This document shows, one piece after another, positions 7,815 to 58,398 of a stretch of 64,000 bases of DNA. The notes under the pieces were generated by a model, which saw only the letters and a list, made by a program, of their open reading frames with translations, did not search any database and was not told the origin of the DNA. Source of the stretch: Candidatus Nomurabacteria bacterium (GTDB lineage: Bacteria > Patescibacteriota > Minisyncoccia > Phycocordibacterales > UBA9973); contig CP060230.1 in assembly GCA_023898605.1 (NCBI GenBank), forward strand, positions 387,697-451,696, given 5' to 3'. Each line of letters opens with the position of its first letter. Positions within the stretch are counted from its first letter, which is position 1. A program made the translations under genes and the position numbers.

Positions 7815-7817
7815 TTT

Positions 7818-14377: not shown

Positions 14378-14379
14378 TT

Positions 14380-15168
14380 TTATTTTATTTTATTTTTTAC
14401 CTTATTTAGAACTCTTTCAAAAAAACTTTTTTGTTCGTTTTTTAATTCCTCACCAGGTCTTTCTTTGAAGATAGTAGAGTGGGCCTCTGCCCTAGCTTCT
14501 ATGTCTTTTGCCGGAGACGTATAGTAATAAAGTGCAAGAGACTTTCTAGTCATGTCTTCCGGACAATTTATTGGATCTGGGTGACCATGAAAACTATCTT
14601 CAGATGTGGAAAAAATAGCAAGCCTATTAAAAATAGGCAGTACCTTTACCTCAGCCTTTGTCATATCTTTGTTCCACAGTTCAAAGTGTCCGCCATATTC
14701 TTCTTTCCAGTTATCATTTAAATACAAAAGAACATTTATTCTTCTTTCTATATGAAGTCTTGGGTACCAATTGAAGTCAACATGGACCTTTAGAAATCCA
14801 CCCTTTTTTATCTGGTGCATACCACCACCTCTGTAGTGAGGATCTGGAATTATACCTTCTATACCTGTAAGTTTTTCTAGAAAATTGATGAACTCACTAG
14901 AATTAAATTCTTTCAATGTCTCTCTTATTTCCGCGGGAAACTTAGTAGCATCTTCACATGCCATTTTGTATTGGTATTGATCTTTATAGTCTTTATTCCA
15001 TACATCAGAATCAACTTTTGGAAAATTATTTAGAAGTTCTCTTGCCAAATCTTCTGATAAAAAGTTATCAAAATATATATGCTGGCAAGGTTTTGCGTTC
15101 TGATACTTGGAACTATTTTGCTCCGCCAAGGTATTTAGCTTGTTATAGTCAAATTTTGTTTGATTCAT
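14380..15168 (-). CDS. 2OG-Fe(II) oxygenase (prolyl-4-hydroxylase-like)
   Basis: HVD...GGHFELW provides the H-x-D...H facial triad, with a downstream Arg. Confidence 0.6.
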   Translation of the reverse strand: MNQTKFDYNKLNTLAEQNSSKYQNAKPCQHIYFDNFLSEDLARELLNNFPKVDSDVWNKDYKDQYQYKMACEDATKFPAEIRETLKEFNSSEFINFLEKLTGIEGIIPDPHYRGGGMHQIKKGGFLKVHVDFNWYPRLHIERRINVLLYLNDNWKEEYGGHFELWNKDMTKAEVKVLPIFNRLAIFSTSEDSFHGHPDPINCPEDMTRKSLALYYYTSPAKDIEARAEAHSTIFKERPGEELKNEQKSFFERVLNKVKNKIK

Positions 15169-16184
15169 ATTTTTTCCAAAAGATTTTTTATAATAATTTT
15201 TGGAGTTAGTTTTTCTAAAAAAGTTTTATAGCCTGAAACAGCTACTTTTTCACAAATAGCAGGATTATTTTTTGCAAAAAGAATCCTCTCCTCTATACTT
15301 TTATCATTTACACTAGAGCAGAATATCACATTTTCAAGATCATGTAAAAGCTCTTTTGTTGCACTTGTTTCAAGTGTAACAACCGGCTTTTTAGAAGCAA
15401 GTCCTTCATATACCTTGTTTGGAATTACAATATTTGCTTTTTTTGTATCGCCAAAAATACCGAGCACCAAGTCAGCTTTTGACAAAACCAGAGAAATATC
15501 TTTATATTCAAACCTTGGAAAAAATTTTATATTATCAGAAACTTCTTTGGTGCTGCTTCCGTATATATGGAACTCTATATCTTTATGCTGCGATAAATTT
15601 TTAGCTGCACGTATTATTTTATCTAAACCGTGAAGCGGTGTTCCTATACCGTGAAAATGAACTATAAACTTATCACTTTTTTCCGAGACCATAGGGTAAA
15701 CTATTTTTTCATTTGCGCCAACATAAACAACCAAAAATTTTTTCTTTTTTACAAAAAACTTTTTAGAGATGAAATCTTTGTGAGAATTTGTATCTATAAG
15801 TATAACCGGTGAAAAAACAAGAGATAACCAGTCAAGAAACCAAAAATAAAACGCTTTTAAAGAAGTTTTAGAAAACTTTTTTCTGTCCTCAATATTAGAA
15901 TTATAAAGTGATACAAAAAAATCTAAAACTACCTTTTTACCAAAAAGGATTCTGGCAAACCACAAAACACTGTGTCCGGGAAAAAGAACGAAAACCTTGT
16001 CGAAATTAGAGTTTTTATTTTTTTTATACTCGCGAAATAATGAAAAATATTTTTTTAGACCTTTATTTTTTTCCGGGTCAACAACACACTCGTACACCTC
16101 TACCCCGTTTGAAACAAGACCGTCTATAATTACAGAATTTCTTGAATAATTTTTATCATATATACCAAATAATAAAATTCTCAT
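15165..16184 (-). CDS. glycosyltransferase (GT-B fold, family uncertain)
   Basis: N-terminal MRILLFGIY GT-B start and C-terminal IPNKVYEGLASKKPVV. Confidence 0.45.
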   Translation of the reverse strand: MRILLFGIYDKNYSRNSVIIDGLVSNGVEVYECVVDPEKNKGLKKYFSLFREYKKNKNSNFDKVFVLFPGHSVLWFARILFGKKVVLDFFVSLYNSNIEDRKKFSKTSLKAFYFWFLDWLSLVFSPVILIDTNSHKDFISKKFFVKKKKFLVVYVGANEKIVYPMVSEKSDKFIVHFHGIGTPLHGLDKIIRAAKNLSQHKDIEFHIYGSSTKEVSDNIKFFPRFEYKDISLVLSKADLVLGIFGDTKKANIVIPNKVYEGLASKKPVVTLETSATKELLHDLENVIFCSSVNDKSIEERILFAKNNPAICEKVAVSGYKTFLEKLTPKIIIKNLLEKI

Positions 16185-17206
16185 AAAATATGATCTTTAA
16201 TTTTTTTTATTAAATCAACAAGCTCATGATTTTTTGTTACAAAATCCCTTGCCTGACTATCGATACCTAGATCTGATAAATATTTTATTTTTTGTGCTAT
16301 TTCTTGTGGATTTTCTGAACACTTATTTTTTTCTGGCATATATGACATAGCTTCATTCGAAGTTAGGACATTTAATCCGCAAGACATGGCTTCTAGGATA
16401 GCCTTGTCTAGACTTCCGGTCTTACTAAGGTTAACAAATATATTTGCATCATTATAAATAGTTGGGATCTTATCTTGAGAAATAGGACCTAAAAACTCTA
16501 CCCTGTCATAAATATTTAAACTATCTATGAGATTTAAAAGTTTTTTCTTATAATTTTTATCTTCTGGTCCAACTATACTTAATTTTGTTTCGAATCCTTC
16601 TTTTTTCAAAATAGATATAGCTTCTAATAGTGGTTCGTAATTTTTATAAATAGATACTCTTCCTATAGACACGATCTTTCTATGATCCCTGTCTCTATTT
16701 ATTACAGAAAACTTAGAGGTATCTATACCATGACCCATAATGTGTAGCTTTTTACTTGGCAATCTAAAACTTTCTTTTGAAGCAGAAAAAACACTATCAC
16801 AAAGCTTCTCAGCAAGGCGAAGTTTCATGTCGACGTTTTTGTGTGTATACCACAGAGCAATTCTCTTCCCCATCATTTTCCAGAACACTCCGCCCAAAAT
16901 AACATATATCGGATTCATGTGAACAAAAACACTGTCATAATTATTCTTTTTTGAAAAAATATATTTATAGAATCGAAAAAGATACTTTATTCTAGATACA
17001 CCCTCCTCTTTTCCAAGTGACAGAACTTCTACATTGCTAGGCAGATTATATTCTCCTTTTTTGAGACACACTACAATTACAGACTCAAAGTTTTTGGCAA
17101 ATTCCAAAATCCACGAGTGAAAAAATCCCAAAATTGGATCATTTTTGTCTACAATTTGTGTAATTATAAGAATCTTCTTTTTCATAATTAGATCGCCTTT
17201 TTCCAA
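16181..17206 (-). CDS. glycosyltransferase family 4
   Basis: DKAILEAMSCGLNVLTS. Confidence 0.7.
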   Translation of the reverse strand: MEKGDLIMKKKILIITQIVDKNDPILGFFHSWILEFAKNFESVIVVCLKKGEYNLPSNVEVLSLGKEEGVSRIKYLFRFYKYIFSKKNNYDSVFVHMNPIYVILGGVFWKMMGKRIALWYTHKNVDMKLRLAEKLCDSVFSASKESFRLPSKKLHIMGHGIDTSKFSVINRDRDHRKIVSIGRVSIYKNYEPLLEAISILKKEGFETKLSIVGPEDKNYKKKLLNLIDSLNIYDRVEFLGPISQDKIPTIYNDANIFVNLSKTGSLDKAILEAMSCGLNVLTSNEAMSYMPEKNKCSENPQEIAQKIKYLSDLGIDSQARDFVTKNHELVDLIKKIKDHIL

Positions 17207-18267
17207 TTTGAAACTATTCTGTCGTAATACTCTCCTTGGTTTTCATAAAAATTATAACTTCTGTTTTTCACACCAACTTTTAATGTGTGAAGTATGTCGC
17301 TCTTGTCTATTTCTTTCAAGATATTTCTTATAGCAGCATGATCTCCCGCATCATAAAGAAGTCCGTTTACCCTGTCGTCTATAACCTTGTCTGCTATCCC
17401 CACCCTGCTTGTTATAACAGGAGTTCCATTCTGAAGAGACTCTACTATCGCCATACCAAAACCTTCAAAAAAAGAATTATTCCAAAATACATCTACATTT
17501 CTCATATAAAACCCCAGATCAAAAGCCCACGGCCTAACTAAAACCCTGTTTTTTGAATCACTTTTTATTATGTTCAAAATTGCACCTTTCATGGAACCAT
17601 CTCCGACAACAACAAGTCCAGAGTTTTCCAAATTATCTTTTACAAAAATTTTAACACCTTCGTATATCCCCTTCTCTTTCTCAAATCTTCCAGAAAGAAG
17701 TATGGTTTTTTGGAACTTTTTTGTAAATTCTAAAAATTCCTCATCTTTGAATTGAGACACGAGGCCGGGGTTTTCGGTTATTATCGGAATTATATCTGAT
17801 GGAATACTTTTTACATCAAAAACTTTTTCTATGTTTTCTTTTGTTTTTTCTGAAACGTATCTTATGACATTTGATTTTTCCAAGACTTTTCTAGCCAAGA
17901 AAAAACGAATTTTTCCGAAAAAACTTTTTCTAAAGAATGGACTTGCAACATCTGTGTGGACTTGTGTATGAAGTTTTGCACCGAGAAACCTAGAGACAAT
18001 AAGCGAAACTACTCCTATAAAAAACGGGTCTTGGCTTGTAACCAGATCAATCTTGGAAGAAACCAGACTCTTTATCTTAAATGGAGAAAAAAGATTCTTG
18101 GAAACGGGGGTTATTCTGAATCCGTCACCTTCTATGATCTTTTTTTCACTACAGAGGCAAACAACTTCTAGGTAGTCCACCCTCTTCGCGTATTCTTTTA
18201 CACGCAAAAAAGTCGAGCTATCTTCTCGAAAAACTTTACTATCTCCACTTATCATCAAAACTTTCAT
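17188..18267 (-). CDS. glycosyltransferase family 4
   Basis: FEGFGMAIVESLQNGTPVITSRVG. Confidence 0.75.
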   Translation of the reverse strand: MKVLMISGDSKVFREDSSTFLRVKEYAKRVDYLEVVCLCSEKKIIEGDGFRITPVSKNLFSPFKIKSLVSSKIDLVTSQDPFFIGVVSLIVSRFLGAKLHTQVHTDVASPFFRKSFFGKIRFFLARKVLEKSNVIRYVSEKTKENIEKVFDVKSIPSDIIPIITENPGLVSQFKDEEFLEFTKKFQKTILLSGRFEKEKGIYEGVKIFVKDNLENSGLVVVGDGSMKGAILNIIKSDSKNRVLVRPWAFDLGFYMRNVDVFWNNSFFEGFGMAIVESLQNGTPVITSRVGIADKVIDDRVNGLLYDAGDHAAIRNILKEIDKSDILHTLKVGVKNRSYNFYENQGEYYDRIVSNWKKAI

Positions 18268-19361
18268 ATCTTTTCAAATATATTTATTATCTTCTCACCT
18301 GTTTTTTCAAAAGAGAAAAATTCTGAATCTTTCTTGGCACTAGAAGATATATCTTCTCTCTTCTGACTATTTTCTTCTAGAGAAAAAATCGCGCTTTTTA
18401 TAGATTCTGGGTCATCTGGGTTTATAAACACTCCGTTTTGTCCGTCTCGGATTATCTCTTCTAGATTTGAAACCCTGCTTGCCAAAACAGGAGTACCGAG
18501 CATCATAGCCTCAACAATCTGAAAAGAAAAGCTCTCGAACTTGGTTGGCAAAACAAAGTACATAGACTCTTTTATATACCTATATAGATCAGTTTGTGGT
18601 AGTGTGCCGGTAAATACAACTCTTTCACTTACATCCATTTCTCTAGCCAGCTTTTCTAGTGACTCTCTTTCTGGTCCATCACCAACAAGATGAAGTGTCC
18701 AGTCTGGCATCTTGGAAATAACTTGGATCAAAACACCGAAGTTCTTCCATGGTACAAATCTTCCAGAAGAAATTATAGTCTTTGGTTTTTTGGGAATATT
18801 ATCATACAGACTTTCATCTATCTTTGGCACGCCATTGTACACGACTTCCATTTTGTCTTCTATAATTCCCCACTTGGAAATAACACCGGCAAAGTACTTA
18901 CTAGGAACTATCACTCTAGTCGCCCTCTTTGCGACAAGCCTTTCTAGTTTTTTGAGTAGTTCTATTTTCTTGCCATATTTTTTTGTTTGGAAAACTTCTA
19001 TGTCGTCTGACACTCCCCACCTCTGTCTTGCTTGCTCCCATACATAGTCTCCAGGGATTCTCAAAACATATTTTCTACGCAGAACAAAACAAGCAATCAT
19101 TGTCGGAAGACCTACACTTAGTGTGTCTTGTACAAAAATATATTTTGAAGAAAGAATCTTCCGAAGAACTAGAAAAGTAAAATGTATATGTCTTATGCCT
19201 TTTGGGTATTTTCTAGAAACACGAAACATTGCGACGTCTACCTCCTCCCCCCTCTCTTCTAGGAAGTTTTTCAAAAGTCTTGCATAAGTAGCTGGACCAC
19301 CTATCTCGGGTGGATATATACCAGTTACTATTAGAAATTTTTTGCCTTTATTATTCATCAA
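18264..19361 (-). CDS. glycosyltransferase family 4
   Basis: ESFSFQIVEAMMLGTPVLASRV. Confidence 0.8.
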   Translation of the reverse strand: MMNNKGKKFLIVTGIYPPEIGGPATYARLLKNFLEERGEEVDVAMFRVSRKYPKGIRHIHFTFLVLRKILSSKYIFVQDTLSVGLPTMIACFVLRRKYVLRIPGDYVWEQARQRWGVSDDIEVFQTKKYGKKIELLKKLERLVAKRATRVIVPSKYFAGVISKWGIIEDKMEVVYNGVPKIDESLYDNIPKKPKTIISSGRFVPWKNFGVLIQVISKMPDWTLHLVGDGPERESLEKLAREMDVSERVVFTGTLPQTDLYRYIKESMYFVLPTKFESFSFQIVEAMMLGTPVLASRVSNLEEIIRDGQNGVFINPDDPESIKSAIFSLEENSQKREDISSSAKKDSEFFSFEKTGEKIINIFEKI

Positions 19362-20514
19362 ATATAACTCGCATCTTTGAGACGACCATCTCCCAAGTAT
19401 ACTTCTCTTCTACCATATTTCTAGCTCGGAAGATAATCTTGTTTCTGAGTGTGTCGTCTCGGAATCTAAGCACTGCGTCTCGTATAGAGTCTGGTTTTTC
19501 TACTTCGCAGAACACCCCTGTTTCGCCATCTACCAGAAAGTCCGGTATCCCGCCAACCGGAGTAGCCACAACCGGAAGTCCTGTCGCCATAGCCTCCAGA
19601 AAGGCGTTTCCTAGGCCCTCAGAGAGCGATGGGCGAATAAATACATCACTTATATACAAATACCCCGGCATCTCTCTATGAGGCACATAACCCTTCCAAA
19701 TCACCCTCTTTTCTACCCCCAAATTCAGGGCCAATTTGCGGAGTTTTTTCTCTAGTGGGCCAGAGCCGAGGATCAAGAATTTGTACTCTTTTGGCAAGAT
19801 AGCTAGCGCGCTTATTACATCCCCCACCCCGTTTTTCTTGACCAGCCTAGAAGAAGTAACTAGTAGTATATCACTCGGTTCTTTGCCGACTTCTTCTCTA
19901 ACTCTTTCCAAACTTATCGGATCGGGTTTCTCAGAAAATATACTTGTATCTACAGCGTTTGGTACAACAAAACTCTCTCCCTTGAAACCCATACTTTTTC
20001 CAAAGTCTTCTAGATATTTTGAAATCGCTTGTATTTTGTCTGCTTTCAGAAAAATCATTTTGAAAAGTGGATACACCAAAGCGACTCTTCTCTTGATATA
20101 CGGGATCGGATCACCTTCTTGCAGTGTTAGAAGAAACTTCACTTTTGGAAACTTGAGCTTGAAAAATAGCGCACCAAACCCTGCGTAGTTCGCCATCATC
20201 GCCCAAGTCATATCGTAATTTTCTTCTTTGTGGAGTTTCTTGGCATACCCGTACGAAGCAAACGGAAACATGTATTTCGACAAATGAAACAGTATCTTTC
20301 CGATAAAAGGTACGCCTAATAAATATGGTCCGACTCTATGCACAGTTACATTTCCTATCTTTTCTGTCTTCTCTCTATTTGTCCTCATGGTAACCATGTG
20401 GAAGTCAAATCTGTCGCCCAGTCTGTCTGTTATTTCCTTGATCGCAACCTCTGCTCCACCAACAAAATCTGGGTAATAGACCAAAGAAAACAGGAGTATT
20501 TTCTTTTTGTTCAT
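19351..20514 (-). CDS. glycosyltransferase family 4
   Basis: EGLGNAFLEAMATGLPVVATPVGG; its first 20 codons and 14 bp of upstream sequence are duplicated at 21998-22071. Confidence 0.8.
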   Translation of the reverse strand: MNKKKILLFSLVYYPDFVGGAEVAIKEITDRLGDRFDFHMVTMRTNREKTEKIGNVTVHRVGPYLLGVPFIGKILFHLSKYMFPFASYGYAKKLHKEENYDMTWAMMANYAGFGALFFKLKFPKVKFLLTLQEGDPIPYIKRRVALVYPLFKMIFLKADKIQAISKYLEDFGKSMGFKGESFVVPNAVDTSIFSEKPDPISLERVREEVGKEPSDILLVTSSRLVKKNGVGDVISALAILPKEYKFLILGSGPLEKKLRKLALNLGVEKRVIWKGYVPHREMPGYLYISDVFIRPSLSEGLGNAFLEAMATGLPVVATPVGGIPDFLVDGETGVFCEVEKPDSIRDAVLRFRDDTLRNKIIFRARNMVEEKYTWEMVVSKMRVIFDE

Positions 20515-49491: not shown

Positions 49492-52400
49492 TTATTTTAA
49501 GATTATTTCTTCGCCCATAAATTTTATTTCTTTAACTCCAGCAGTTTTCTTCAAATCATCTTCGAATCCTGAAACTGTCTCTTTGTATTTCTCTGGCAGA
49601 GTTAGATTTATCACATCACTAGGAATAAGACCCTTTTCTTTTCGCATGTCTTGTATAACACGAACAAGTTCTCGATATTCCCCTTCTCTCTTTAGTTCTG
49701 GAGTTATGTTCATGTCGAAAGAAACTTCACTAGAAACTTTTACCTCTTTTACATTTAACTCTTCCTTGATCAGGTCTTTTAAGTCTTGAGACACTTCTTC
49801 TTTTACAAAGAATGTTTGAAGTGGTTGTCTTAGTGGTATGTTTGTCTTTTTTCTTATTGAATTACCCTCTGTACATAAATCTCTAACTTTTTGCATATCA
49901 GATATTATTTGTGTATTTACCTTCCTTGCTTCTGGCCAGCTTGTAAGATGAACGGACTCTACATCATTATCAGTCTTCAACCTTTGCCATATATCCTCTG
50001 CACTAAACGGTGCAAACGGAGCCATAAGTTTAGCGAGTGTTTTCAAAACATAATAAAGAGTTCTCTTTGCATCATTATCACCATCTTTTAGTCTGTCTCT
50101 AGAACGTCTAAGGTACCATGTAGAGAGGTCATCAATAAAACTTCTCATTTCTCTTACCGGCTCAAACAATTTGAAGTTGTCCATGTTTTCTGTAGAAGAT
50201 TTTATCAGCTCGTTTAGTTGTGCAAGTATCCACTTATCTAATATATTTTTTGATTCTGACAAATCTCGACCTGCCCCGTATCGAACTTGTTCTGGTACGG
50301 GGTAAAGCTCATAAAACGCTAGCACGTTATAAAGCAAACCAAAGAACTTCCTGTTTAGATCAAGTACTGTTTTTTCATCGAAGTTTTTCGCGTCACCTGG
50401 CTGGTTGACTGAGTACATCCACAGTCTCAATGTATCAACACCATATTTCTCAACCATTTCTATAGGGTCAACCGTGTTTCCGATTGACTTACTCATCTTT
50501 TTACCGTTGGCATCTAGTATAAGCCCGAGACTTATAACATTTCTATAAGCTTTTCCTGTACCCATGATTCCTCCTATTGCATGAAGTGTGTAGAACCAAC
50601 CACGAGTTTGATCTATTCCCTCACTTATAAAGTCTGCTGGATAACCACGCTGTTTTCTAAATAAACCTTTATATGGTTGAAATGTTTTTTCAGAATTTTC
50701 AAATGGATAGTGGTCCTGTGCAAACGGCATAGAACCAGAGTCGAACCATACATCTAGAACTTCTTTTACTCTAGTATATTCTTTGCCCCCTTTCTCCAAA
50801 ACGACACTATCGATAAATGGCTTGTGAAGATCTATTTCTAGATTTTGATTCATTGGCATTTTTACAAAATCCAACTCTCGCACTTCTGAGTTTTCAAACC
50901 TCTTGAAATCTTCTACAAAAACTTTGTGGTCCTCTTTTTGGTAGTCTTCACCGTGTGGAGAAAAAAGCCCTGCATTTACATAGAAAAGCCAAGCTGGGCC
51001 ACCATGCGTCACAAAAAGTATTTTTTTGCCTTTGTATTTTTCTTCACAATCAAGAAGTACTTTTCTAACCCTTTGTCCGACTTCGAGCAAAGATTCGCCA
51101 CCTTCTACTTTTCTGTTGAACCAATCTTTATCACTACCTTCTATTGCATCGTGAAAATCTGACCAGTTCTTGCCGTCGAAAATACCAGGATTTATTTCTT
51201 GTAGTCTTTCGTCTTTTATAAGGGATTCTTTTGGAAGTCCAAGAGTTTCTATAACAATTTTTCCAGTTTCTAGTGTTCTTCTAAATGGAGAAGTTATGAC
51301 TAGATCGATACCAGCCCCATTTAGACTTTGTGCTTTTTTCTTTGTCTCTTCTTTACCTTCTTCTGTTAGTCCGTCTTGGCCCTCTCTTATATAACTCACT
51401 ACCCCACTCTTGTTGCTCTCGGTACCGCCGTGTCTCATCACAAAATATTTGTTGTTTCCCTTTTTTGAAAGTTTTCTAAGTGTAGTGATAGAATCCACGA
51501 CAATCCTATCTCCATCGCTAGACTCCCATATAGGAAGTGGTGTTCCCCAATATCTTTCGCGTGAAATTGCCCAATCTTTTAGACCGCGTAGCCACTCGCC
51601 AAATCTTCCGTCTTTTATATGCTCTGGTTCCCAGTTTATACTCTCGTTTTCTTTTACAAGCTTGTCTCGCAATTTTTCCATGCGTATATACCAAGAATCT
51701 CTCGCATAATATATAAGCGCGGTTTTACAACGCCAACAGTGTGGGTATGAGTGTTCGTATTTTTCTTTTTTGAAAAGTAGGTTTCTTCCCGCAAGGTCTT
51801 TGATTATATCTATCGCAACTTCTTCATCTTTTACAAATCTACCTGTCAGAAAATCCATACCGTCTATGTAGTGACCATCTTCTTTTACTAAGTGAAACTT
51901 TGGAAGACCCACTTTAGTTCCTAGTGCAAAATCATCTTGTCCATACATAACAGCAGTATGAACAATACCTGTTCCATCTTCTGTGTTTACAAAGTCTGCA
52001 GAATATACTTTATATGCTTTTGACTTATCCAAAGATTCTGGAGCTAGATTATTGAAGTATGCATATAGTGGCTCGTATTCTTTCCCAACAAGATCAGAAC
52101 CTTTTATCTTTTCAGAAATTTCTACGTCACCATCTAGAACAGAAAGTCTGTCCTCGGCGAGTATTAGAAAATCATTTTCTAATTTTACTTTTACATAAAA
52201 AATATCTTTTCCTACTGCAAGAGCAATATTTCCAGGAAGAGTCCATGGTGTAGTTGTCCATGCAAGAAAATATGTGTTTTCTTCTCCTACAACTTTGAAT
52301 TTTGCTGTCACAGAAAGATCCTTGTCGTCTTGATAACCCTGCGCAAGTTCATGAGAAGAAAGTGCTGTACCACATCTAGGACACCAAGGTAGAACTTTGT

Positions 52401-52953
52401 AGTCCTTGTAAAGAAGTCCCTTTTTCTCGACAGTACTCAATATATTCCAGACAGACTCCATGTACTGATTCTCATAAGTAACGTATGGATTCTTGGAGTC
52501 GATCCAGTAACCAACTCTTTCTGTAAACTTCTCCCACAAGTCTCTATACTGCCAAACGCTTTCTTTACACTTCTGATTGAACTTCTCTACGCCGTATTCT
52601 TCTATCTCTTTTTTGGAAGTGAGTCCAAGCTCTTTTTCAACTTGAAGCTCAACAGGAAGTCCGTGAGTATCCCAACCACCCTTTCTCCTTACATAAAAAC
52701 CTCTCATTGTTTTATAGCGAGGAATTGCATCCTTGAATGCCCTAGCTTCTAAGTGGTGTATTCCTGGTTTTCCATTTGCAGTTGGTGGACCTTCATAGAA
52801 AACAAACTCTTTTCTCCCCTTCGACATACTCAGGGTCTTTTCAAAAATATCGTTCTCTTTCCAGAACTCTAAAACTTTTTCTTCCTTGTCCGCCATAGCA
52901 GATTTTGCGACGGTGGAGTTTTTTACGTATTGATTTTTTGTATTTTCTTCCAT
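49492..52953 (-). CDS. ileS: isoleucine--tRNA ligase (type 2) with an inserted histidine-phosphatase (PGAM-like) domain
   Basis: PPTANGKPGIHHLEA (HIGH), the TTTPWTLPGN editing domain, KMSKS and close collinearity with type-2 IleRS; the track start (53115) overlaps the T-box terminator, so the true start is downstream, likely ATG 52953 or 52998. Confidence 0.85.
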   Translation of the reverse strand: MEENTKNQYVKNSTVAKSAMADKEEKVLEFWKENDIFEKTLSMSKGRKEFVFYEGPPTANGKPGIHHLEARAFKDAIPRYKTMRGFYVRRKGGWDTHGLPVELQVEKELGLTSKKEIEEYGVEKFNQKCKESVWQYRDLWEKFTERVGYWIDSKNPYVTYENQYMESVWNILSTVEKKGLLYKDYKVLPWCPRCGTALSSHELAQGYQDDKDLSVTAKFKVVGEENTYFLAWTTTPWTLPGNIALAVGKDIFYVKVKLENDFLILAEDRLSVLDGDVEISEKIKGSDLVGKEYEPLYAYFNNLAPESLDKSKAYKVYSADFVNTEDGTGIVHTAVMYGQDDFALGTKVGLPKFHLVKEDGHYIDGMDFLTGRFVKDEEVAIDIIKDLAGRNLLFKKEKYEHSYPHCWRCKTALIYYARDSWYIRMEKLRDKLVKENESINWEPEHIKDGRFGEWLRGLKDWAISRERYWGTPLPIWESSDGDRIVVDSITTLRKLSKKGNNKYFVMRHGGTESNKSGVVSYIREGQDGLTEEGKEETKKKAQSLNGAGIDLVITSPFRRTLETGKIVIETLGLPKESLIKDERLQEINPGIFDGKNWSDFHDAIEGSDKDWFNRKVEGGESLLEVGQRVRKVLLDCEEKYKGKKILFVTHGGPAWLFYVNAGLFSPHGEDYQKEDHKVFVEDFKRFENSEVRELDFVKMPMNQNLEIDLHKPFIDSVVLEKGGKEYTRVKEVLDVWFDSGSMPFAQDHYPFENSEKTFQPYKGLFRKQRGYPADFISEGIDQTRGWFYTLHAIGGIMGTGKAYRNVISLGLILDANGKKMSKSIGNTVDPIEMVEKYGVDTLRLWMYSVNQPGDAKNFDEKTVLDLNRKFFGLLYNVLAFYELYPVPEQVRYGAGRDLSESKNILDKWILAQLNELIKSSTENMDNFKLFEPVREMRSFIDDLSTWYLRRSRDRLKDGDNDAKRTLYYVLKTLAKLMAPFAPFSAEDIWQRLKTDNDVESVHLTSWPEARKVNTQIISDMQKVRDLCTEGNSIRKKTNIPLRQPLQTFFVKEEVSQDLKDLIKEELNVKEVKVSSEVSFDMNITPELKREGEYRELVRVIQDMRKEKGLIPSDVINLTLPEKYKETVSGFEDDLKKTAGVKEIKFMGEEIILK
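50941..51474 (-). other. histidine phosphatase superfamily (branch 1, phosphoglycerate-mutase-like) domain embedded in IleRS
   Basis: VMRHGGTESN (RHGxxxxN), ITSPFRRTLETG and VTHGG motifs in a roughly 180-aa insert between PLPIW and DLHKPFID. Confidence 0.6.
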
Positions 52954-53080
52954 CCCATTAGAGGCAGAACGCGATACATCCTTATTAGAAATTTCCATAT
53001 TATTTTGTATATTATATTTTTTCATAACTTGTTTTATCCGATATAATCCGCGATCGCGGCCTCTAACGGGATCCATAAAA

Positions 53081-53410
53081 TTAAAAACTCGTCCTTGTAC
53101 AACGATATATATCATTGTGTAAGGACGAGTTTCCTCGTGGTACCACCTTAGTTACTTCTCATTTACAGCTATTTTGGGCTTACCCATCCAGTTCTACTCA
53201 CCCGAACATTTGAAATGTTGTGGCTTTCTTCTGAAAGCATCGGAGAGTGATATTCTCCTCTAGCGCTATAGGTAGAGTATATACAATTATTAATCAAAAG
53301 CAAACGCTGACAAAAAAGAAAAATATCCCGCACATGCGAGATATTTTCCTTTGTGTCGACTTGGCCACAGGTATAAGTCAACACTATGACTTACCTCTCC
53401 CTGTTGGCAT
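53081..53410 (-). promoter_or_regulatory. T-box riboswitch leader of ileS with a sigma70-like promoter
   Basis: minus-strand RNA AACUAAGG-UGGUACC-ACGAG-GAAA-CUCGU-CCUU is a canonical T-box antiterminator (7-nt bulge, GNRA loop); competing terminator CUCGUCCUU...AAGGACGAG-UUUUUAAUUUU (53081-53130); promoter TTGACG-16-TATTAT (53444-53417). Confidence 0.85.
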
Positions 53411-53497: not shown

Positions 53498-55159
53498 TTA
53501 CATAACTTCTGGAGATTTTATACCTAGAAGATAAAGTCCGTTTTTTAATATAAAAGTAGTTTTCTCAGCAATCAAAAGATCGTTTTCAATATCTTGATTT
53601 GATTCGTCTATTATTTTTTTTGATGCATACCATGAATTAAACTCTCTACAAAGAGACAAAAGATAGGTTGTTATGTAGTGCGGTGCCCATTCTTCTATAG
53701 ATCTATTAACTACATGTTCAAAACTTAACATAATCTTTTCTAGGTTAGATATTTTTGCGCCAGAAAGTTTTTCTGACGGTACATGACCAGCTTCTTTTGC
53801 ATTTCGAAGGAGTGACATACTACGCGCGTATGTGTATTGGATATAAGGACCAGAGTCTCCTTCGAAGGAAAGTGATTTGTCTGGATCAAAGTTTATATTT
53901 TTTCCAGAAACAACTCTCAGTATCGCAAACTTGAGAGCAGATATAGCAATGTCTTCTGAACTAGAAGTGTCTTTGCCCAAACTCGCAATGTCTTGAATCA
54001 ATGTTTCTAGTACATCGGATGCAATAGGTACACCGCCCTCTCGAGAAGACATCTTCTTGCCACGAAGCGTCATCCTGCCATGAGTTCTGTGTATTGTTTT
54101 TTCTTTCCAATCTTTGTCTATTTTTCCAGCCGCTGACAAAACAACGTCGAAGTGAGATGTTTGTTCGTGGTCAGTTATAACAACAGAAATATCTGGGTTG
54201 TATTTTTTGAACTTAAGAGAAAGCAGCCCTATATCTTTGGCCTCATATGTTGGATACCCTTCGCTGTTTATAAAAACTCTTGTGTGTAGTCCATCCTCTT
54301 CCCCTTTGTAGATTACTGCACCTTCACTTTCTACAAAAACCTCTGGGTGCTCTAGAACTATTTTCTTACCCTCTTCCCCTGCCTCACTCTCATATATAAA
54401 GTCATCAAAAGTTGAACCGAGTTTCTTTGTTTCGTTTATAAAGTATTCTAGATTTAGATCTTTTCCTTTCTTGTAAGCTTCGTATTCTTCTCCTTCTTCT
54501 TTTTGAAAAATCTTTCTGGTTATTTCTTTTACTTTCTCTTGAACGTTTTCGTTTTCTTCAAAAGCTTTTACCCCGTCGACATAACACTGACCTAGAAAAT
54601 CCAACTTTTCTTTTGTAGAAGAAAGTCTATCTAGATTTTCTACACCCTTTTCTAGTAGCGACCAAACTGCCTTGCCTATACCAATCGAAACATCTGAAGG
54701 AAAAGAAAGTCTTTTTACATCTGCGCCAGAATATTCAGAAAGTCTGACTATAGATTCCCCTATCGCGTTGTTCATGACGTGTCCTATATGGAATGGCTTG
54801 AAAAGGTTTGGACTAGAGTGTTCAACGATTATGGTTTTACCTTTGTGAATATCTGTTTTACCAACACTAGAATCAATAGTAGATATATATTTTTCTATAA
54901 AATCATCTGTAAGACGAAAGTTTATAAATCCAGGTCCTGCGACCTCAATACTTTTTATCATGTCTCCTTTTTCTATTTTTGAAATTATAGAGCTTGCTAG
55001 TTCTGATGGATTTTTACCTAGTTTTTTAGCAGAAACCATCGCTATATTTGTAGTCATTTCTCCATGAGAAAAATCGTCCGTGTATTCCACAGTAGGCTTT
55101 TCCTCTATTCCTAAATCTCTGAGAGCCGAGACCAGCAAGGCTTCCACATCTTTTTTCAT
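53498..55159 (-). CDS. argS: arginine--tRNA ligase
   Basis: PFHIGHVMNNAIGES (HIGH), GPYIQYTYARSMSLLR and KMSSREGG. Confidence 0.85.
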   Translation of the reverse strand: MKKDVEALLVSALRDLGIEEKPTVEYTDDFSHGEMTTNIAMVSAKKLGKNPSELASSIISKIEKGDMIKSIEVAGPGFINFRLTDDFIEKYISTIDSSVGKTDIHKGKTIIVEHSSPNLFKPFHIGHVMNNAIGESIVRLSEYSGADVKRLSFPSDVSIGIGKAVWSLLEKGVENLDRLSSTKEKLDFLGQCYVDGVKAFEENENVQEKVKEITRKIFQKEEGEEYEAYKKGKDLNLEYFINETKKLGSTFDDFIYESEAGEEGKKIVLEHPEVFVESEGAVIYKGEEDGLHTRVFINSEGYPTYEAKDIGLLSLKFKKYNPDISVVITDHEQTSHFDVVLSAAGKIDKDWKEKTIHRTHGRMTLRGKKMSSREGGVPIASDVLETLIQDIASLGKDTSSSEDIAISALKFAILRVVSGKNINFDPDKSLSFEGDSGPYIQYTYARSMSLLRNAKEAGHVPSEKLSGAKISNLEKIMLSFEHVVNRSIEEWAPHYITTYLLSLCREFNSWYASKKIIDESNQDIENDLLIAEKTTFILKNGLYLLGIKSPEVM

Positions 55160-55236
55160 GTACCCTGATTCTAGCATAAAAACCAAAATTTTGATTTATA
55201 GGAAATTTATGTATAATCAGAAAAAATTGCACATTA

Positions 55237-55791
55237 ATGGAAACATCCTATCGAAAAACCGAAGAGGAAATATCTTTGGTAATTAAAAAGTGTAAGGACT
55301 TATTTCTAAAAAAGAATCAAGATTATGGTTCATCCTGGCGAGTGATGCGACTTCCTAGTCTTACGGATCAAATTTTTATCAAAGCACAAAGATCACGAAC
55401 TGTTGAAGACACCAAAGAAAATCGTGTCGGAGAAAGTATAGAAGCAGAATATATAGGTATGATTAATTACTCAATCATGTCTTTAATTCAACAAAAATTG
55501 GGCGCAAAACCAGAAGCCCATATGGACAAACAACTTCTCTCTGATCTTTATGACGAAGAAATTAAGGAAATCGAAGAATTGAGACAAAACAAAAATCATG
55601 ACTATGGGGAAGCCTGGAGAAGCATGAGACCAAATTCATTTACAGACCTTATACTAATGAAACTTGTCAGAATAAAACAGATAGAAGACAATGACGGCAA
55701 AACGATTGCCTCTGAAGGGGTACGTTCTGGCTATCAAGATATTGTAAACTACTGTTTCTTCTGGCTTATCCTTACTGGATCTGAAAAATAA
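55237..55791 (+). CDS. tandem-repeat all-alpha protein (DUF1599-like; possibly a MazG/dimeric-dUTPase-type NTP pyrophosphatase, uncertain)
   Basis: two repeats, NQDYGSSWRVMRLPSLTDQIFIKAQRSR and NHDYGEAWRSMRPNSFTDLILMKLVRIK. Confidence 0.3.
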   Translation: METSYRKTEEEISLVIKKCKDLFLKKNQDYGSSWRVMRLPSLTDQIFIKAQRSRTVEDTKENRVGESIEAEYIGMINYSIMSLIQQKLGAKPEAHMDKQLLSDLYDEEIKEIEELRQNKNHDYGEAWRSMRPNSFTDLILMKLVRIKQIEDNDGKTIASEGVRSGYQDIVNYCFFWLILTGSEK

Positions 55792-55792
55792 A

Positions 55793-55816
55793 AGCTGGTA
55801 ACCCCAGCTTTTTTCT
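55793..55816 (+). terminator. rho-independent terminator
   Basis: agctgg-taacc-ccagct-tttttcttttt. Confidence 0.55.
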
Positions 55817-55868
55817 TTTTGACAAAACAGTTTCTAAATAGTAGTGTTGGTTTAAATCAAACCCAAAA

Positions 55869-57266
55869 ATGATGCTTAAAAAATTAATAAAGAATTTTGT
55901 TCTCCGAGTTAGACTCGCGAGATTCAAAAAAAAGGTTACCTTTTCTGAAAAAAATGATCAGGTAGTTACAATCTATGACCACCTCGCCCCCGAGGATGAC
56001 GCCATGCTTCAATCTCTAAATTCGAGACAAGCGGGTGGACTCTGGGTCAACCTGAAAAAGGTTTTGAGTGAAGGGAGTTCAAAAAAATTCATGAGCATGT
56101 TCTACATTGGCTATGGACACCGATCAATAGGTGATTGTGGCACAACAACAGTGTCTCTGGACGGAATTAGTATGCTTTCAGCCAAGGCTGTGCAAGACTG
56201 GCCGCTTTACAGTGGACAAGAAACATCTACCCGATACATTGATGTGGAAGGTTTGGGTGTTTATGACCCCATGAAAACTGAAAATTCTTCAGCTATCATG
56301 AAAAAATGGTTCGACTTTTACAGAGATGCTCGTCCGAGACTTATAGAACATCTTCTGGAAAAGTTCCCGATAGAAAAAGGTCAAAAAGAGTCTGTGTACA
56401 AAAAGGCGATCGAGGCTAGGGCCTTTGATATCCTTAGATCATTCTTGCCCGCAGGCGCTAAAACCAATGCCAGTATTCATATGAATCTCAGGCAATTTGG
56501 CGATAAGCTACTGTGGATGAGGCACCACCCAGCAAAAGAAACCTCGTCACTTGCACTTCAAATGGAAGAAATGTTGATCAAAAGGTATCCGTCCAGTTTT
56601 AGTGAAAAAAGATACCCTGAAAGTGAAGAGTTCAGAAAAGATTTCATGCAAAACCATTACCTCTGGACTGGAGGCATCCAAAAAAAGATGGGTTCATTCA
56701 TTCATGGAATAAAAAACATAAGTGAAATGGAATTTATGAGGAGTTTTGGAGACCTTCAGAAAAAAAGGCCGCCAAAAACTGACCCACCAAAGGTTTGGAA
56801 TGAATATGGAACTTTTCAGTTCGACTTTATGATCGACTTTGGATCCTACAGGGACCTCCAGAGGCAACGGAGTGCTGAACAAAGAATGCCACTTTTGACG
56901 ACTGAACTTGGTTTCGAAAAATGGTACCTGGAAGAACTTCCGGAAGACCTGCAAAAAGAAGCTGAGATTCTTATAAAAGATCAGACAAGCGACATAGAAA
57001 GTCTCGCCTGCAGTGATGTAGAAAGACAGTACTACATTGCTATGGGATTCCGTGTTCCGTGCAGGTTTACAATAAAGCTTGCCGACCTGATCTACATAGT
57101 AGAACTAAGAAGTCAAAAGACTGTTCACCCAACCGCAAGAATGGTTGCTCAAAAAATGGGTGGTGTTCTGAAGGATGCATTTCCTGATCTTGTTCTTTAT
57201 TTGGACGAAGAGCCTGCAAACTTTGATGTAAAGCGAGGTACTCAAGACATTGTTAAAAAAGGTTAA
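55869..57266 (+). CDS. tandem-duplicated ThyX-like (flavin-dependent thymidylate synthase fold) protein, divergent
   Basis: two units, each with an HRS/RQRS (RHR-like) segment and the ThyX C-terminal pattern R..LP...T...N.R....LR....A..E.. Confidence 0.4.
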   Translation: MMLKKLIKNFVLRVRLARFKKKVTFSEKNDQVVTIYDHLAPEDDAMLQSLNSRQAGGLWVNLKKVLSEGSSKKFMSMFYIGYGHRSIGDCGTTTVSLDGISMLSAKAVQDWPLYSGQETSTRYIDVEGLGVYDPMKTENSSAIMKKWFDFYRDARPRLIEHLLEKFPIEKGQKESVYKKAIEARAFDILRSFLPAGAKTNASIHMNLRQFGDKLLWMRHHPAKETSSLALQMEEMLIKRYPSSFSEKRYPESEEFRKDFMQNHYLWTGGIQKKMGSFIHGIKNISEMEFMRSFGDLQKKRPPKTDPPKVWNEYGTFQFDFMIDFGSYRDLQRQRSAEQRMPLLTTELGFEKWYLEELPEDLQKEAEILIKDQTSDIESLACSDVERQYYIAMGFRVPCRFTIKLADLIYIVELRSQKTVHPTARMVAQKMGGVLKDAFPDLVLYLDEEPANFDVKRGTQDIVKKG

Positions 57267-57271
57267 CCAAA

Positions 57272-57295
57272 GCCCTGCGAAAGCGGGGCTTTTTC
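57272..57295 (+). terminator. rho-independent terminator
   Basis: gccctgc-gaaa-gcggggc-tttttc. Confidence 0.6.
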
Positions 57296-57350
57296 TTTGC
57301 CCTTGTTATATTCCCTCCTTTTTGTTAATGTTACGAAAAATCAGTAACCA

Positions 57351-57893
57351 ATGATCCTTACAGACAAAAAAATAAAAGAGGAAATAGAGAGCGGATCGAT
57401 TATTATCGAACCATTCATTCCTGAGAATTTAGGTACTAACTCCTACGATGTTCGACTTTCTGAGTATCTGGCTATTTACAAAAGTGCAATACTAGATGCA
57501 AAAGAAAAAAACGAGATCGAACACCTGACAATCCCAGACGATGGATTCATCATACACCCTGGAACGTTGTATCTTGGTACAACTATCGAATACACAGAAA
57601 CTCACGCTCACGTTCCTTTCTTGGAAGGAAAATCTAGCGTTGGTAGGCTTGGTATAGATATCCATGCTACAGCTGGAAAAGGAGATGTTGGGTTCGAAGG
57701 ATTCTGGACACTGGAAATATCTTGTACACAACCAGTCAAGATATATGCCGGTATGCCGATAGGGCAACTCATCTATTTTGAAATCTCAGGAGAAGTTGAG
57801 AACTCGTACAACAAGAAGAAAAGTGCGAAATATATCAATGAAGATCCTAGACCAATGGGTTCGATGATGTACAAAAATTTTCCTCTGAAATAA
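57351..57893 (+). CDS. dcd: dCTP deaminase
   Basis: MILTDKKIKEEIESGSIIIEPF and GKSSVGRLG (dUTPase-superfamily Dcd). Confidence 0.8.
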   Translation: MILTDKKIKEEIESGSIIIEPFIPENLGTNSYDVRLSEYLAIYKSAILDAKEKNEIEHLTIPDDGFIIHPGTLYLGTTIEYTETHAHVPFLEGKSSVGRLGIDIHATAGKGDVGFEGFWTLEISCTQPVKIYAGMPIGQLIYFEISGEVENSYNKKKSAKYINEDPRPMGSMMYKNFPLK

Positions 57894-57894: not shown

Positions 57895-57926
57895 GCAAAA
57901 CCGCCCTAACTAAGGGCGGGTTTTTA
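57895..57926. terminator. bidirectional terminator between dcd and rplK
   Basis: aaaa-ccgccc-taactaa-gggcgg-gttttt. Confidence 0.6.
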
Positions 57927-57941: not shown

Positions 57942-58364
57942 CTATTCTACGTGAATACCAGCTTGTCTTGCAGTACCAGCAACTATTTTCATAGCAGCTT
58001 CGATATCGTCAGTGTTTAGATCTTTCATCTTTATCTCTGCAACTTTTTTCAGCTGATCTTTTGTTATGACCCCAGCTCTAGATGAGTTTGGTCTACCAGC
58101 TCCCTTTTGGATACCTGCTTCTTTTTTTAGAAGTTCGATAGTTAGAGGAGTTTTGATTATGAAGTCATAAGATCTGTCTTCATAAACTGAGAGAACTACA
58201 GAAACAACGAATCCTCCCATTTCCTTGCTGGACTCATTGAACTTCTGAACGAAGTCTCCGATGTTTACTCCAGCTTGTCCAAGTGCAGGACCAAGTGGTG
58301 GCGCAGCACTAGCTCCCCCTGCAGGGACTTGAAGCTTTACTTTTTTTATTACTTTTTTTGCCAT
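57942..58364 (-). CDS. rplK: 50S ribosomal protein L11
   Basis: VPAGGASAAPPLGPALGQAGVNI; 140 aa. Confidence 0.9.
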   Translation of the reverse strand: MAKKVIKKVKLQVPAGGASAAPPLGPALGQAGVNIGDFVQKFNESSKEMGGFVVSVVLSVYEDRSYDFIIKTPLTIELLKKEAGIQKGAGRPNSSRAGVITKDQLKKVAEIKMKDLNTDDIEAAMKIVAGTARQAGIHVE

Positions 58365-58398
58365 GTTTAAAATGTAAGTGTTAAGCGAATATTTGAAG

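What the first reader, a model, noticed from the sequence alone, without database searches (positions are those of the whole stretch)
55237..57893. Three-gene cluster: DUF1599-like tandem all-alpha protein, tandem-duplicated divergent ThyX-like protein, and dCTP deaminase
dcd makes dUTP. A flavin-dependent thymidylate synthase fold protein lies immediately upstream but is duplicated in tandem (465 aa) and replaces the RHR motif by HRS/RQRS. Before it is a protein with two (Q/H)DYG..W..R repeats; a MazG or dimeric-dUTPase-like all-alpha NTP pyrophosphatase would complete a dCTP to dUTP to dUMP to dTMP route. Alternatively a divergent ThyX-like enzyme with altered active-site residues could make a modified pyrimidine such as hydroxymethyl-dU or dC. 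Either way this is a compact, unusual deoxypyrimidine module.
Basis: partly seen in the sequence, partly recalled or inferred. Interest (0 to 1): 0.6.

Follow-up and report, generated by a model that had tools for sequence, protein, structure and literature searches.

The report
Thymidylate gene island with fused ThyX
Three neighbouring genes in a tiny uncultured (CPR) bacterium form a route from dCTP to the DNA building block dTMP. Its flavin-dependent thymidylate synthase is an internally duplicated fusion in which each half keeps only part of the catalytic residues, and beside it sits a conserved protein of unknown function that also turns up next to folate or thymidylate genes in other lineages.

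Summary
Three + strand genes lie at 55237-55791 (two DUF1599 repeats), 55869-57266 (465-aa ThyX-like) and 57351-57893 (dCTP deaminase).

The 465-aa protein is a true tandem of two Thy1 domains. It belongs to a large family in CPR bacteria and jumbo phages, already annotated as FAD-dependent thymidylate synthase. Across 88 related loci its neighbours are thymidylate kinase, dUTPase/Dcd, dCMP deaminase (sometimes fused to it) and SHMT, so it is an ordinary dTMP synthase, not a modified-base enzyme.

The ThyX motif is not lost but divided:
- The C-half keeps R-(H/Q)-R and the ELR arginine.
- The N-half keeps GHxS, the NLR arginine and QETSTRY.

Mapped on published subunit roles in the ThyX tetramer, this predicts a dimer acting as a pseudo-tetramer with two active sites instead of four.

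DUF1599 is not shown to be a dUTPase. No MazG-clan sequence model matches it, the fold similarity is weak, and canonical dUTPase sits beside it in 3 of 5 related clusters. It is linked to ThyX in one CPR clade and in Asgard viruses, and to folP in Bacteroidota. Its function remains open.

Verdict: a known pathway with a probably undescribed enzyme architecture and one real unknown.

The parts
55237..55791 (+). DUF1599 protein (184 aa). It is two tandem DUF1599 / 'nucleotide modification associated domain 1' repeats, each a three-helix unit, and its function is unknown.
   Evidence: Pfam PF07659 E 3e-56 with 2 stretches. AF2 model pLDDT 88 with helices 2-30, 39-59, 68-88 and 98-123, 132-151, 162-181. 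It is 55-61% identical to Bacteroidota homologues.
55790..55812 (+). Terminator-like hairpin (9 pairs) plus T-run directly after the DUF1599 stop codon
   Evidence: Consensus scan; sequence read
55869..57266 (+). Tandem (pseudo-dimeric) flavin-dependent thymidylate synthase, 465 aa
55965..56603 (+). N-half Thy1 domain (about residues 33-245). It keeps GH84xS86, Q117-E118-T-S120-T-R122-Y123 and N206-L-R208. It has D110-W111-P112 in place of RHR.
   Evidence: HMMER alignment to PDB 3gwc/3ge9. Those residues are invariant in 120 family members.
56664..57263 (+). C-half degenerate Thy1 domain (about residues 266-465). It keeps R328, R332-Q333-R334 (the RHR equivalent) and E412-L413-R414. It lacks the GHxS, NxR and SxR elements.
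   Evidence: Pfam Thy1 on isolated C-halves in 12/20 members, best E 1.4e-5. hhalign to the canonical ThyX C-terminal helices. R328, R332, R334 and R414 are invariant in 120/120. RHR follows helix 324-331 and ELR ends helix 404-414, as in T. maritima ThyX.
57269..57292 (+). Terminator-like hairpin (10 pairs, 6 GC) plus T-run directly after the ThyX stop codon
   Evidence: sequence read
57351..57893 (+). dCTP deaminase (180 aa), possibly the dUMP-forming bifunctional type
   Evidence: TIGR02274 130 bits, above the 92.8 cutoff. Best solved relatives are M. tuberculosis Dcd (95.7 bits) and M. jannaschii 'dCTP deaminase, dUMP-forming' (74 bits), ahead of E. coli Dcd (60.8 bits).
57901..57919 (.). 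Bidirectional terminator-like hairpin between the convergent dcd and rplK (L11) genes

Best explanation
The cluster is a thymidylate-synthesis island of a CPR (Nomurabacteria) genome.

- Dcd deaminates dCTP. The product is either dUTP, which a dUTPase encoded elsewhere would hydrolyse, or dUMP directly if the enzyme is of the bifunctional type that it most resembles.
- The 465-aa protein is the cell's flavin-dependent thymidylate synthase. It converts dUMP to dTMP with FAD, NAD(P)H and methylene-tetrahydrofolate.
- It is a fusion of two ThyX domains that have divided the active-site residues between them. The C-half supplies what 'subunit A' supplies in the canonical homotetramer: the RHR motif and the second dUMP-binding arginine. 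The N-half supplies the 'subunit B' residues (GHxS serine and NxR arginine, which bind FAD) and the 'subunit C' residues (the S-x-R-Y loop, which binds and covers dUMP).
- Two chains should therefore form a pseudo-tetramer with two working active sites. Each site would be built from one C-half and both N-halves. The other two sites would be dead.
- DUF1599 is a conserved helical accessory protein of unknown activity. It is genomically tied to folate-dependent thymidylate metabolism and is probably not the pathway's dUTPase.

Shown: domain identities, fold, conservation pattern and genomic context. Inferred: enzyme activity, oligomer and half-of-sites architecture, Dcd bifunctionality, and any role of DUF1599.
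For: -
- Second Thy1 domain.
- Conservation in 120 members. N-half invariant: H84, S86, D89, E118, S120, R122, R208. C-half invariant: R328, R332, R334, R414.
- Residue equivalences come from the HMMER alignment to M. tuberculosis ThyX 3gwc: S86=Ser71, R208=Arg190, E118=Gln103, S120=Ser105, R122=Arg107, Y123=Tyr108.
- The review PMC6514825 section 3.1 assigns RHR and Arg199 to subunit A, Ser71 and Arg190 to subunit B, and Ser105, Arg107 and Tyr108 to subunit C of one active site. The split in the fusion follows these roles exactly.
- The same split is present in jumbo-phage homologues at 31% identity.
- Context of the family in 88 loci: Tmk 70, Dut/Dcd superfamily about 55, dCMP deaminase 43, SHMT 18, FolD 8.
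- dCMP deaminase-ThyX fusion P0111, followed by a Tmk-dUTPase fusion.
- L111 carries FolD, ThyX, DCD, SHMT, Dut and Tmk.
- Phage Tunturi_5 carries dUTPase, dCMP deaminase and tandem ThyX.
- The DUF1599-ThyX pair is conserved in five CPR genomes whose ThyX proteins are only about 47-51% identical.
- A dUTPase-ThyX-DUF1599 block occurs in Asgard viruses (bioRxiv 10.1101/2021.07.29.453957).
Against: - The protein scores far below the TIGR02170 thyX equivalog cutoff (21.7 against 87.9 bits), and no activity has been measured for any family member that I could find.
- The ThyX fold of the C-half rests on weak sequence signals and the predicted secondary-structure order. I could not run a separate structure search on it.
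- The window protein has Q instead of H in RHR, a change of unknown effect.
- Each gene is followed by a terminator-like hairpin, so co-transcription is not shown.
- DUF1599 is adjacent to the tandem ThyX in only 5 of 88 loci. In the bulk of its family it sits next to folP and a MauE/DoxX-like gene instead (67/80 and 60/80 loci), so its link to this pathway may be lineage-specific synteny.
- The closest homologue of the window's Dcd (L043) has a separate Dut beside it, which weakens the bifunctional reading.
- Only 64 kb of a genome of at least 619 kb could be checked for thyA, dut and tmk.
Confidence: 0.7

Rival explanations
1. DUF1599 is an all-alpha (MazG or dimeric-dUTPase-like) pyrophosphatase that hydrolyses the dUTP made by Dcd, completing dCTP -> dUTP -> dUMP -> dTMP within the three genes.
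For: - T. brucei dUTPase has among the highest TM-scores in Foldseek (0.29).
- No dut lies in the 64-kb window.
- The protein has many invariant Lys/Arg and Asp/Glu residues, which would suit a nucleotide-phosphate ligand.
- Canonical MazG occupies 11 of 88 related islands, and those islands lack Dut.
Against: - No MazG-clan Pfam model matches at E<=1, and profile searches against PDB find nothing.
- A canonical trimeric dUTPase sits next to DUF1599 in L062, L088 and L089 and in Asgard viruses.
- Near-identical invariant residues occur in Bacteroidota, where the gene is paired with folP and not with dUTP genes.
- The window's Dcd most resembles the dUMP-forming enzymes.
Confidence: 0.15
2. DUF1599 has a folate/pterin-related role, for example handling a pterin phosphate or a folate intermediate. 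It would then be linked to ThyX only because ThyX consumes methylene-tetrahydrofolate. The window's copy may have been acquired from Bacteroidota.
For: - FolP is adjacent in 67 of 80 metagenomic DUF1599 loci spanning GC 0.26-0.61 and in Anseongella.
- The common denominator of FolP and ThyX is a pterin/folate substrate.
- The window's protein is 55-61% identical to Bacteroidota copies but only 36-48% identical to other CPR copies.
- DHFR lies in the island of L089.
Against: - CPR bacteria and Asgard viruses are not known to synthesise folate (my own knowledge, not tested here).
- folP adjacency within one phylum may be inherited synteny around a divergent promoter.
- No folate-binding fold was detected.
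- The Pfam name and the phage contexts point to nucleotide metabolism.
Confidence: 0.15
3. The tandem ThyX-like enzyme makes a modified pyrimidine (such as 5-hydroxymethyl-dUMP or a methylated/hydroxymethylated dCMP) rather than dTMP.
For: - Divergence from canonical ThyX: below the TIGR02170 cutoff, and not found by a T. maritima ThyX jackhmmer search.
- H-to-Q change in RHR.
- DUF1599 is named 'nucleotide modification associated'.
Against: - The family is the only thymidylate-synthase-like gene seen in the islands, and it sits with thymidylate kinase in 70 of 88 loci.
- It is fused to dCMP deaminase, which makes dUMP.
- It is found in at least 579 GTDB species, which fits a housekeeping role.
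- All dUMP- and FAD-contacting residues are retained when both halves are considered.
Confidence: 0.03

Closest known systems
Canonical homotetrameric ThyX / FDTS (T. maritima TM0449, PDB 1O26/5CHP; M. tuberculosis Rv2754c, PDB 2AF6/3GWC)
   Different: One 430-480-aa chain carries two Thy1 domains instead of one 220-250-aa domain. The contiguous RHRxxSxxxxSxR motif is divided between the halves. The protein scores below the TIGR02170 cutoff. It is predicted to have two active sites per pseudo-tetramer rather than four.
Tandem ThyX-like proteins of jumbo phages (Vibrio phage BONAISHI ORF269, vB_VmeM-Yong, Tunturiibacter phage Tunturi_5 gp50; phrog_36506)
   Same: Full-length match at 31% identity over 68-97% of the protein. 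Same split of motifs. dUTPase and dCMP deaminase are neighbours in Tunturi_5.
   Different: These are viral and longer (461-518 aa). They are annotated only as 'thymidylate synthase(-like)' or hypothetical. No DUF1599 neighbour was seen.
Bifunctional dCTP deaminase:dUTPase (M. jannaschii MJ0430, PDB 1OGH; M. tuberculosis Dcd, PDB 2QXX)
   Same: These are the best solved-structure matches of the window's Dcd (95.7 and 74 bits). They share the HxTAG and IGQL segments.
   Different: Bifunctionality is not established here. The nearest homologue (L043) has a separate Dut beside it.
dUTPase-ThyX-DUF1599 block of Asgard-archaeal wyrdviruses (bioRxiv 10.1101/2021.07.29.453957)
   Same: The same association of DUF1599 with a flavin-dependent thymidylate synthase and a dUMP-supplying enzyme. 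The authors interpret it as a thymidylate operon.
   Different: The context is viral. The preprint says only 'ThyX', so I take it to be the ordinary single-domain form; this is my inference, not something I checked. A dUTPase takes the place of Dcd.
Bacteroidota DUF1599 (folP | DUF1599-MauE/DoxX arrangement)
   Same: 55-61% identical, same two-repeat architecture and the same invariant residues.
   Different: It neighbours dihydropteroate synthase and a membrane MauE/DoxX-like protein, not ThyX, Dcd or Dut.
All-alpha NTP pyrophosphatases (MazG, HisE, dimeric dUTPase)
   Different: No detectable sequence relationship. Foldseek is not significant. It co-occurs with canonical Dut.

Membership tests
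ThyX / flavin-dependent thymidylate synthase | Match to Pfam Thy1 (PF02511) above the gathering score | tested here: met
   56.3 bits against a cutoff of 24.8, on residues 63-241
ThyX / flavin-dependent thymidylate synthase | Match to the NCBIfam equivalog TIGR02170 above its cutoff | tested here: not met
   21.7 bits against a cutoff of 87.9
ThyX / flavin-dependent thymidylate synthase | ThyX fold | tested here: met
ThyX / flavin-dependent thymidylate synthase | Contiguous ThyX motif RHRxxSxxxxSxR within one domain | tested here: not met
   The N-half has DWP...S..E.S.RY. The C-half has R(H/Q)R followed by no SxR. The motif is complete only across the two halves.
ThyX / flavin-dependent thymidylate synthase | Homotetramer with four active sites, each built from three subunits | not testable with these tools
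   Subunit roles were taken from PMC6514825. The conservation pattern predicts a dimer of fusions with two sites. No multimer prediction was available.
ThyX / flavin-dependent thymidylate synthase | FAD- and CH2-THF-dependent conversion of dUMP to dTMP | not testable with these tools
   Only genomic context supports it: Tmk in 70/88 loci, dCMP deaminase in 43/88, a fusion with dCMP deaminase, and SHMT/FolD nearby.
DUF1599 (Pfam PF07659, 'nucleotide modification associated domain 1') | Match to the Pfam model; two repeats | tested here: met
   188 bits against a cutoff of 25, with 2 stretches
All-alpha NTP pyrophosphatase superfamily (MazG / HisE / dimeric dUTPase) | Sequence match to any family model of the superfamily | tested here: not met
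   No MazG, PRA-PH or dUTPase_2 hit at E<=1 in Pfam. Neither the sequence nor the profile found a PDB relative.
All-alpha NTP pyrophosphatase superfamily (MazG / HisE / dimeric dUTPase) | Shared four-helix-bundle fold | tested here: inconclusive
All-alpha NTP pyrophosphatase superfamily (MazG / HisE / dimeric dUTPase) | Metal-binding acidic motifs (EExxE ... ExxD) placed in the bundle | not tested
   Invariant acidic residues exist (D29, D44, E71, D122, E125, D137, E150, D151, E160, D168).
dCTP deaminase (Dcd) | Match to the equivalog TIGR02274 above its cutoff | tested here: met
   130.1 bits against a cutoff of 92.8; Pfam DCD E 2e-39
Bifunctional dCTP deaminase:dUTPase (dUMP-forming) | Closer to the characterised bifunctional enzymes than to the monofunctional one; formation of dUMP | tested here: inconclusive
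   Bit scores are 95.7 (M. tuberculosis), 74.1 (M. jannaschii) and 60.8 (E. coli). The nearest homologue co-occurs with Dut. The product was not tested.

The most novel reading that the evidence does not exclude
Two linked novelties remain possible.

(1) The tandem ThyX of CPR bacteria and jumbo phages is an obligate half-of-sites pseudo-tetramer. The two halves have sub-functionalised into an 'RHR/Arg donor' half and a 'substrate-loop plus FAD-clamp donor' half. I found no description of this architecture for flavin-dependent thymidylate synthases.

(2) DUF1599 is a still-unrecognised component of folate-dependent thymidylate metabolism. It could be a new class of nucleotide or pterin pyrophosphatase, or a ThyX partner. 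Its linkage to ThyX in CPR and Asgard viruses and to folP in Bacteroidota points that way.
Probability: 0.3. Interest if true: 0.65.

Novelty: new variant of a known kind. Interest (0 to 1): 0.4.

Why it matters
ThyX is an essential enzyme and an antibiotic target, and all solved structures are homotetramers. A fused form that has divided the catalytic roles between two halves would be a natural experiment on which subunit contributes what to the active site. It also appears to be the standard thymidylate synthase of a very large bacterial radiation (at least 579 GTDB species) and of some jumbo phages.

DUF1599 is a large family: 1846 clusters at 50% identity, widespread in Bacteroidota-type genomes. 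It has no known function. Its recurrent placement beside folP or ThyX gives a concrete, testable lead.

The pathway itself (dCTP to dTMP) is textbook biochemistry.

Tried and rejected
- Direct sequence searches of the ThyX-like protein and of DUF1599 against PDB found nothing useful.
- The C-half profile against PDB gave only chance hits such as Sm D1.
- hhalign of the C-half against a canonical ThyX profile gave only P 0.03 over 40 columns. Duplication was therefore established through Pfam scans of isolated C-halves.
- The AlphaFold-database fold library was unavailable.
- I suspected from memory that Chlamydia ThyX (about 529 aa) is also tandem, which would make the architecture biochemically characterised. 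I could not verify this.
- The paper that named the DUF1599 domain (Iyer et al. 2013) and the primary ThyX structure papers are not held.
- Viral DUF1599 loci and their neighbours were uninformative. The C-terminal 280 aa fused to DUF1599 in Chryseobacterium phage MA9V-2 has no recognisable domain.
- A metagenome scan seeded with CPR-type DUF1599 returned only Bacteroidota-type loci.
- Sporadic DUF1599 fusions (IspD, ABM, HIT) gave no consistent clue.
- An Rx4H (HEPN-like) reading of 'RQNKNH' was rejected because the Arg is not conserved.
- No riboswitch or other Rfam element, and no tRNA gene, lies in the window.
Full report
**Observation.** They lie between arginyl-tRNA synthetase (53498-55186, - strand) and the L11-NusG-SecE genes (57942-59227, - strand). 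The window is low in GC (about 36%). An identical 465-aa protein is on record from a Candidatus Nomurabacteria assembly, on a 619-kb contig.

Family scans give:
- DUF1599 twice in the first protein (E 3e-56).
- Thy1 on residues 63-241 of the second (E 5e-15). It reaches only 21.7 bits against the thyX equivalog, cutoff 87.9.
- dCTP deaminase above the curated cutoff for the third (130 against 92.8 bits).

Terminator-like hairpins with T-runs follow each gene: 55790-55812, 57269-57292 and 57901-57919. The scan found 9 such sites in the region against 2.7 expected. The genes are therefore clustered but may be transcribed separately.

The predicted secondary structure repeats in the same order in both halves:
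- Residues 93-239: strand, helix, loop, long helix, helix, strand, helix, helix.
- Residues 315-437: the same sequence of elements.

Sequence evidence for the second domain is weak but consistent:
- N-half profile against C-half profile, E 0.007.
- C-half against a canonical ThyX profile, a match on the last two helices only.
- Most useful, 12 of 20 isolated C-halves hit Pfam Thy1 as their top family (best E 1.4e-5). No other family recurs.

**The motif is split, not lost.** Over 120 family members the invariant residues are:
- N-half: H84, S86, D89, Q117, E118, S120, R122, R208.
- C-half: R328, R332, R334, Q387, E412, R414, H420.

The HMMER alignment to M. tuberculosis ThyX (3gwc) gives these equivalences for the N-half:

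| Window residue | M. tuberculosis ThyX |
|---|---|
| H84 / S86 | His69 / Ser71 |
| R208 | Arg190 |
| E118 | Gln103 |
| S120 | Ser105 |
| R122 | Arg107 |
| Y123 | Tyr108 |

The RHR position in the N-half is D110-W111-P112, and the Arg199 position is hydrophobic.

In the C-half, R328-D-L-Q-R332-Q-R334 aligns without gaps to T. maritima R74-Q-W-F-R78-H-R80. I checked my copy of the T. maritima sequence against PDB 1KQ4 and it is identical. E412-L-R414 aligns to N172-L-R174. Both motifs sit at the ends of the equivalent predicted helices.

Its 'RQRS' is RHR with His replaced by Gln, a change found in 16 of 120 members; the family consensus is RHR.

A published description of the M. tuberculosis enzyme (PMC6514825) assigns the residues of one active site to three subunits:
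- Subunit A: RHR and Arg199.
- Subunit B: Ser71 and Arg190, which hold the FAD.
- Subunit C: Gln103, Ser105, Arg107 and Tyr108, which hold dUMP.

In the fusion every A-role residue is in the C-half, and every B- and C-role residue is in the N-half. I infer that two chains form a pseudo-tetramer in which only the two sites whose 'A' subunit is a C-half are functional. This is inference from conservation, not a structural result.

The same split occurs in full-length homologues from jumbo phages: BONAISHI, vB_VmeM-Yong and Tunturi_5 (31% identity). It is therefore old and defines the family.

**What the enzyme does.** The family is large. It gave 3253 hits in the protein collection, nearly all from CPR lineages.

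I tabulated neighbours within about 6 kb in 88 loci with iterated profile searches:

| Neighbour | Loci (of 88) |
|---|---|
| Thymidylate kinase | 70 |
| dUTPase/Dcd superfamily gene | about 55 (classified) |
| dCMP deaminase | 43 |
| SHMT | 18 |
| MazG | 11 |
| FolD | 8 |
| L11 | 50 |

Individual loci are telling:
- P0111 is a dCMP deaminase-ThyX fusion, followed by a kinase and a Tmk-dUTPase fusion.
- L111 has FolD, ThyX, DCD, SHMT, Dut and Tmk.
- L112 has Dut, Tmk, ThyX and dCMP deaminase.
- L113 has dCMP deaminase, kinases, ThyX, Tmk and MazG.
- Phage Tunturi_5 has dUTPase, dCMP deaminase and the tandem gene.

This is the context of an ordinary thymidylate synthase, and it argues strongly against a modified-base product.

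**Dcd.** Membership is clear. Its best solved relatives are the M. tuberculosis enzyme (95.7 bits) and M. jannaschii 'dCTP deaminase, dUMP-forming' (74 bits). The monofunctional E. coli enzyme scores 60.8 bits. From my own knowledge, the M. tuberculosis enzyme is also bifunctional. Direct formation of dUMP is therefore plausible.

However, the nearest homologue in my set (L043, 245 bits) has a separate Dut beside it. I leave this open. Within the 64-kb window there is no Dut, Tmk, SHMT, FolD, DHFR, MazG, dCMP deaminase, ThyA or single-domain ThyX. The rest of the genome could not be examined.

**DUF1599.** The model is confident (pLDDT 88) and shows two three-helix units. The dUTPase idea gets only weak support.
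- Foldseek finds nothing significant.
- No MazG-clan Pfam model matches.
- PDB profile searches are empty.

Context speaks against a simple dUTPase role. The DUF1599-ThyX pair (same strand, about 80-100 bp apart, next to ArgRS) is conserved in five CPR genomes. A canonical trimeric dUTPase is adjacent in three of them (L062, L088, L089). A long DCD is adjacent in the fourth (L087). A preprint on Asgard viruses reports a dUTPase-ThyX-DUF1599 block.

In contrast, canonical MazG and Dut exclude each other in these islands: none of the 11 MazG loci has Dut. That is the pattern a dUTPase substitute should show, and DUF1599 does not show it.

DUF1599 is adjacent to the tandem ThyX in only 5 of 88 loci. 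The family is much larger than this clade, with 1846 clusters at 50% identity. In 80 metagenomic loci of the Bacteroidota type its neighbours are FolP (67 loci) and a MauE/DoxX-like membrane protein (60 loci), never ThyX, ThyA or Dut.

The window's copy is closer to Bacteroidota proteins (55-61% identity) than to the other CPR copies (36-48%).

The common denominator of FolP and ThyX is a pterin/folate substrate. This gives a second hypothesis that I cannot separate from the nucleotide one. Sporadic fusions (IspD, ABM, HIT) do not decide it.

**Comparison with what is known, and novelty.** The pathway and the enzyme class are known, and databases already call the protein an FAD-dependent thymidylate synthase. 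I did not find any description of the tandem architecture, or of the role-by-role division of the active site, in the literature I could search. Key subscription papers were not available, and my recollection that Chlamydia ThyX is also double-length could not be checked.

I therefore rate this a new variant of a known kind, of moderate interest. The DUF1599 link to thymidylate and folate genes is the most open question.

Noticed in passing
window 49492-53115 (- strand): The isoleucyl-tRNA synthetase (1207 aa) carries a histidine-phosphatase (His_Phos_1) domain inserted inside the catalytic domain. The same insertion is present in relatives L089 and L112.
   Followed up: partly
window 57942-59227 and 2688-3792: L11-NusG-SecE lie about 54 kb from L10/L12, and no L1 gene follows L11. 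Across CPR genomes the thymidylate island sits at this ArgRS / L11 junction with highly variable gene content.
   Followed up: partly
loci L008, L016, L023, L024, L029, L039, L046, L052, L064, L066, L113: In the CPR thymidylate islands a small canonical MazG and trimeric dUTPase are mutually exclusive: 0 of 11 MazG loci have Dut. This suggests MazG acts as the dUTPase, or as a dCTPase feeding dCMP deaminase, in those genomes.
   Followed up: partly
window 55237-55791 compared with L062, L087, L088, L089: The window's DUF1599 is 55-61% identical to Bacteroidota proteins but only 36-48% identical to the DUF1599 genes paired with ThyX in other CPR genomes. This may reflect horizontal replacement or rate differences.
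   Followed up: partly
window, L062, L087, L088, L089: None of the five DUF1599-containing islands has a thymidylate kinase within about 6 kb, against 70 of 83 islands without DUF1599. The five belong to one clade, so this may be shared ancestry rather than functional replacement.
   Followed up: no
P0370, P0372, P0447; L085 5965-7374: Occasional DUF1599 fusions occur: IspD-DUF1599, ABM monooxygenase-DUF1599 and DUF1599-HIT. Chryseobacterium phage MA9V-2 has a 469-aa protein with DUF1599 x2 plus an unrecognisable 280-aa C-terminal region.
   Followed up: partly
L082 5545-6687; metagenomic loci L116-L195: In Bacteroidota-type genomes DUF1599 is followed in the same direction by a protein of about 380 aa with a MauE/DoxX membrane domain (60 of 80 loci), and is divergent from folP-cdaA.
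   Followed up: partly
window 5608-20514: A long polysaccharide-type cluster: sugar transferase, epimerase, flippase-like protein, about eight glycosyltransferases, two methyltransferases including a TylF type, and a 2OG-Fe(II) oxygenase at 14380-15168.
   Followed up: no
window 55191-55217: A TTGATT ... TGTATAAT promoter-like sequence with a 15-nt spacer lies in the 50-bp divergent region between argS and the DUF1599 gene. The consensus scan did not list it because of the short spacer.
   Followed up: no
window 1-64000: No tRNA gene and no Rfam family at gathering score in the whole 64-kb window.
   Followed up: yes
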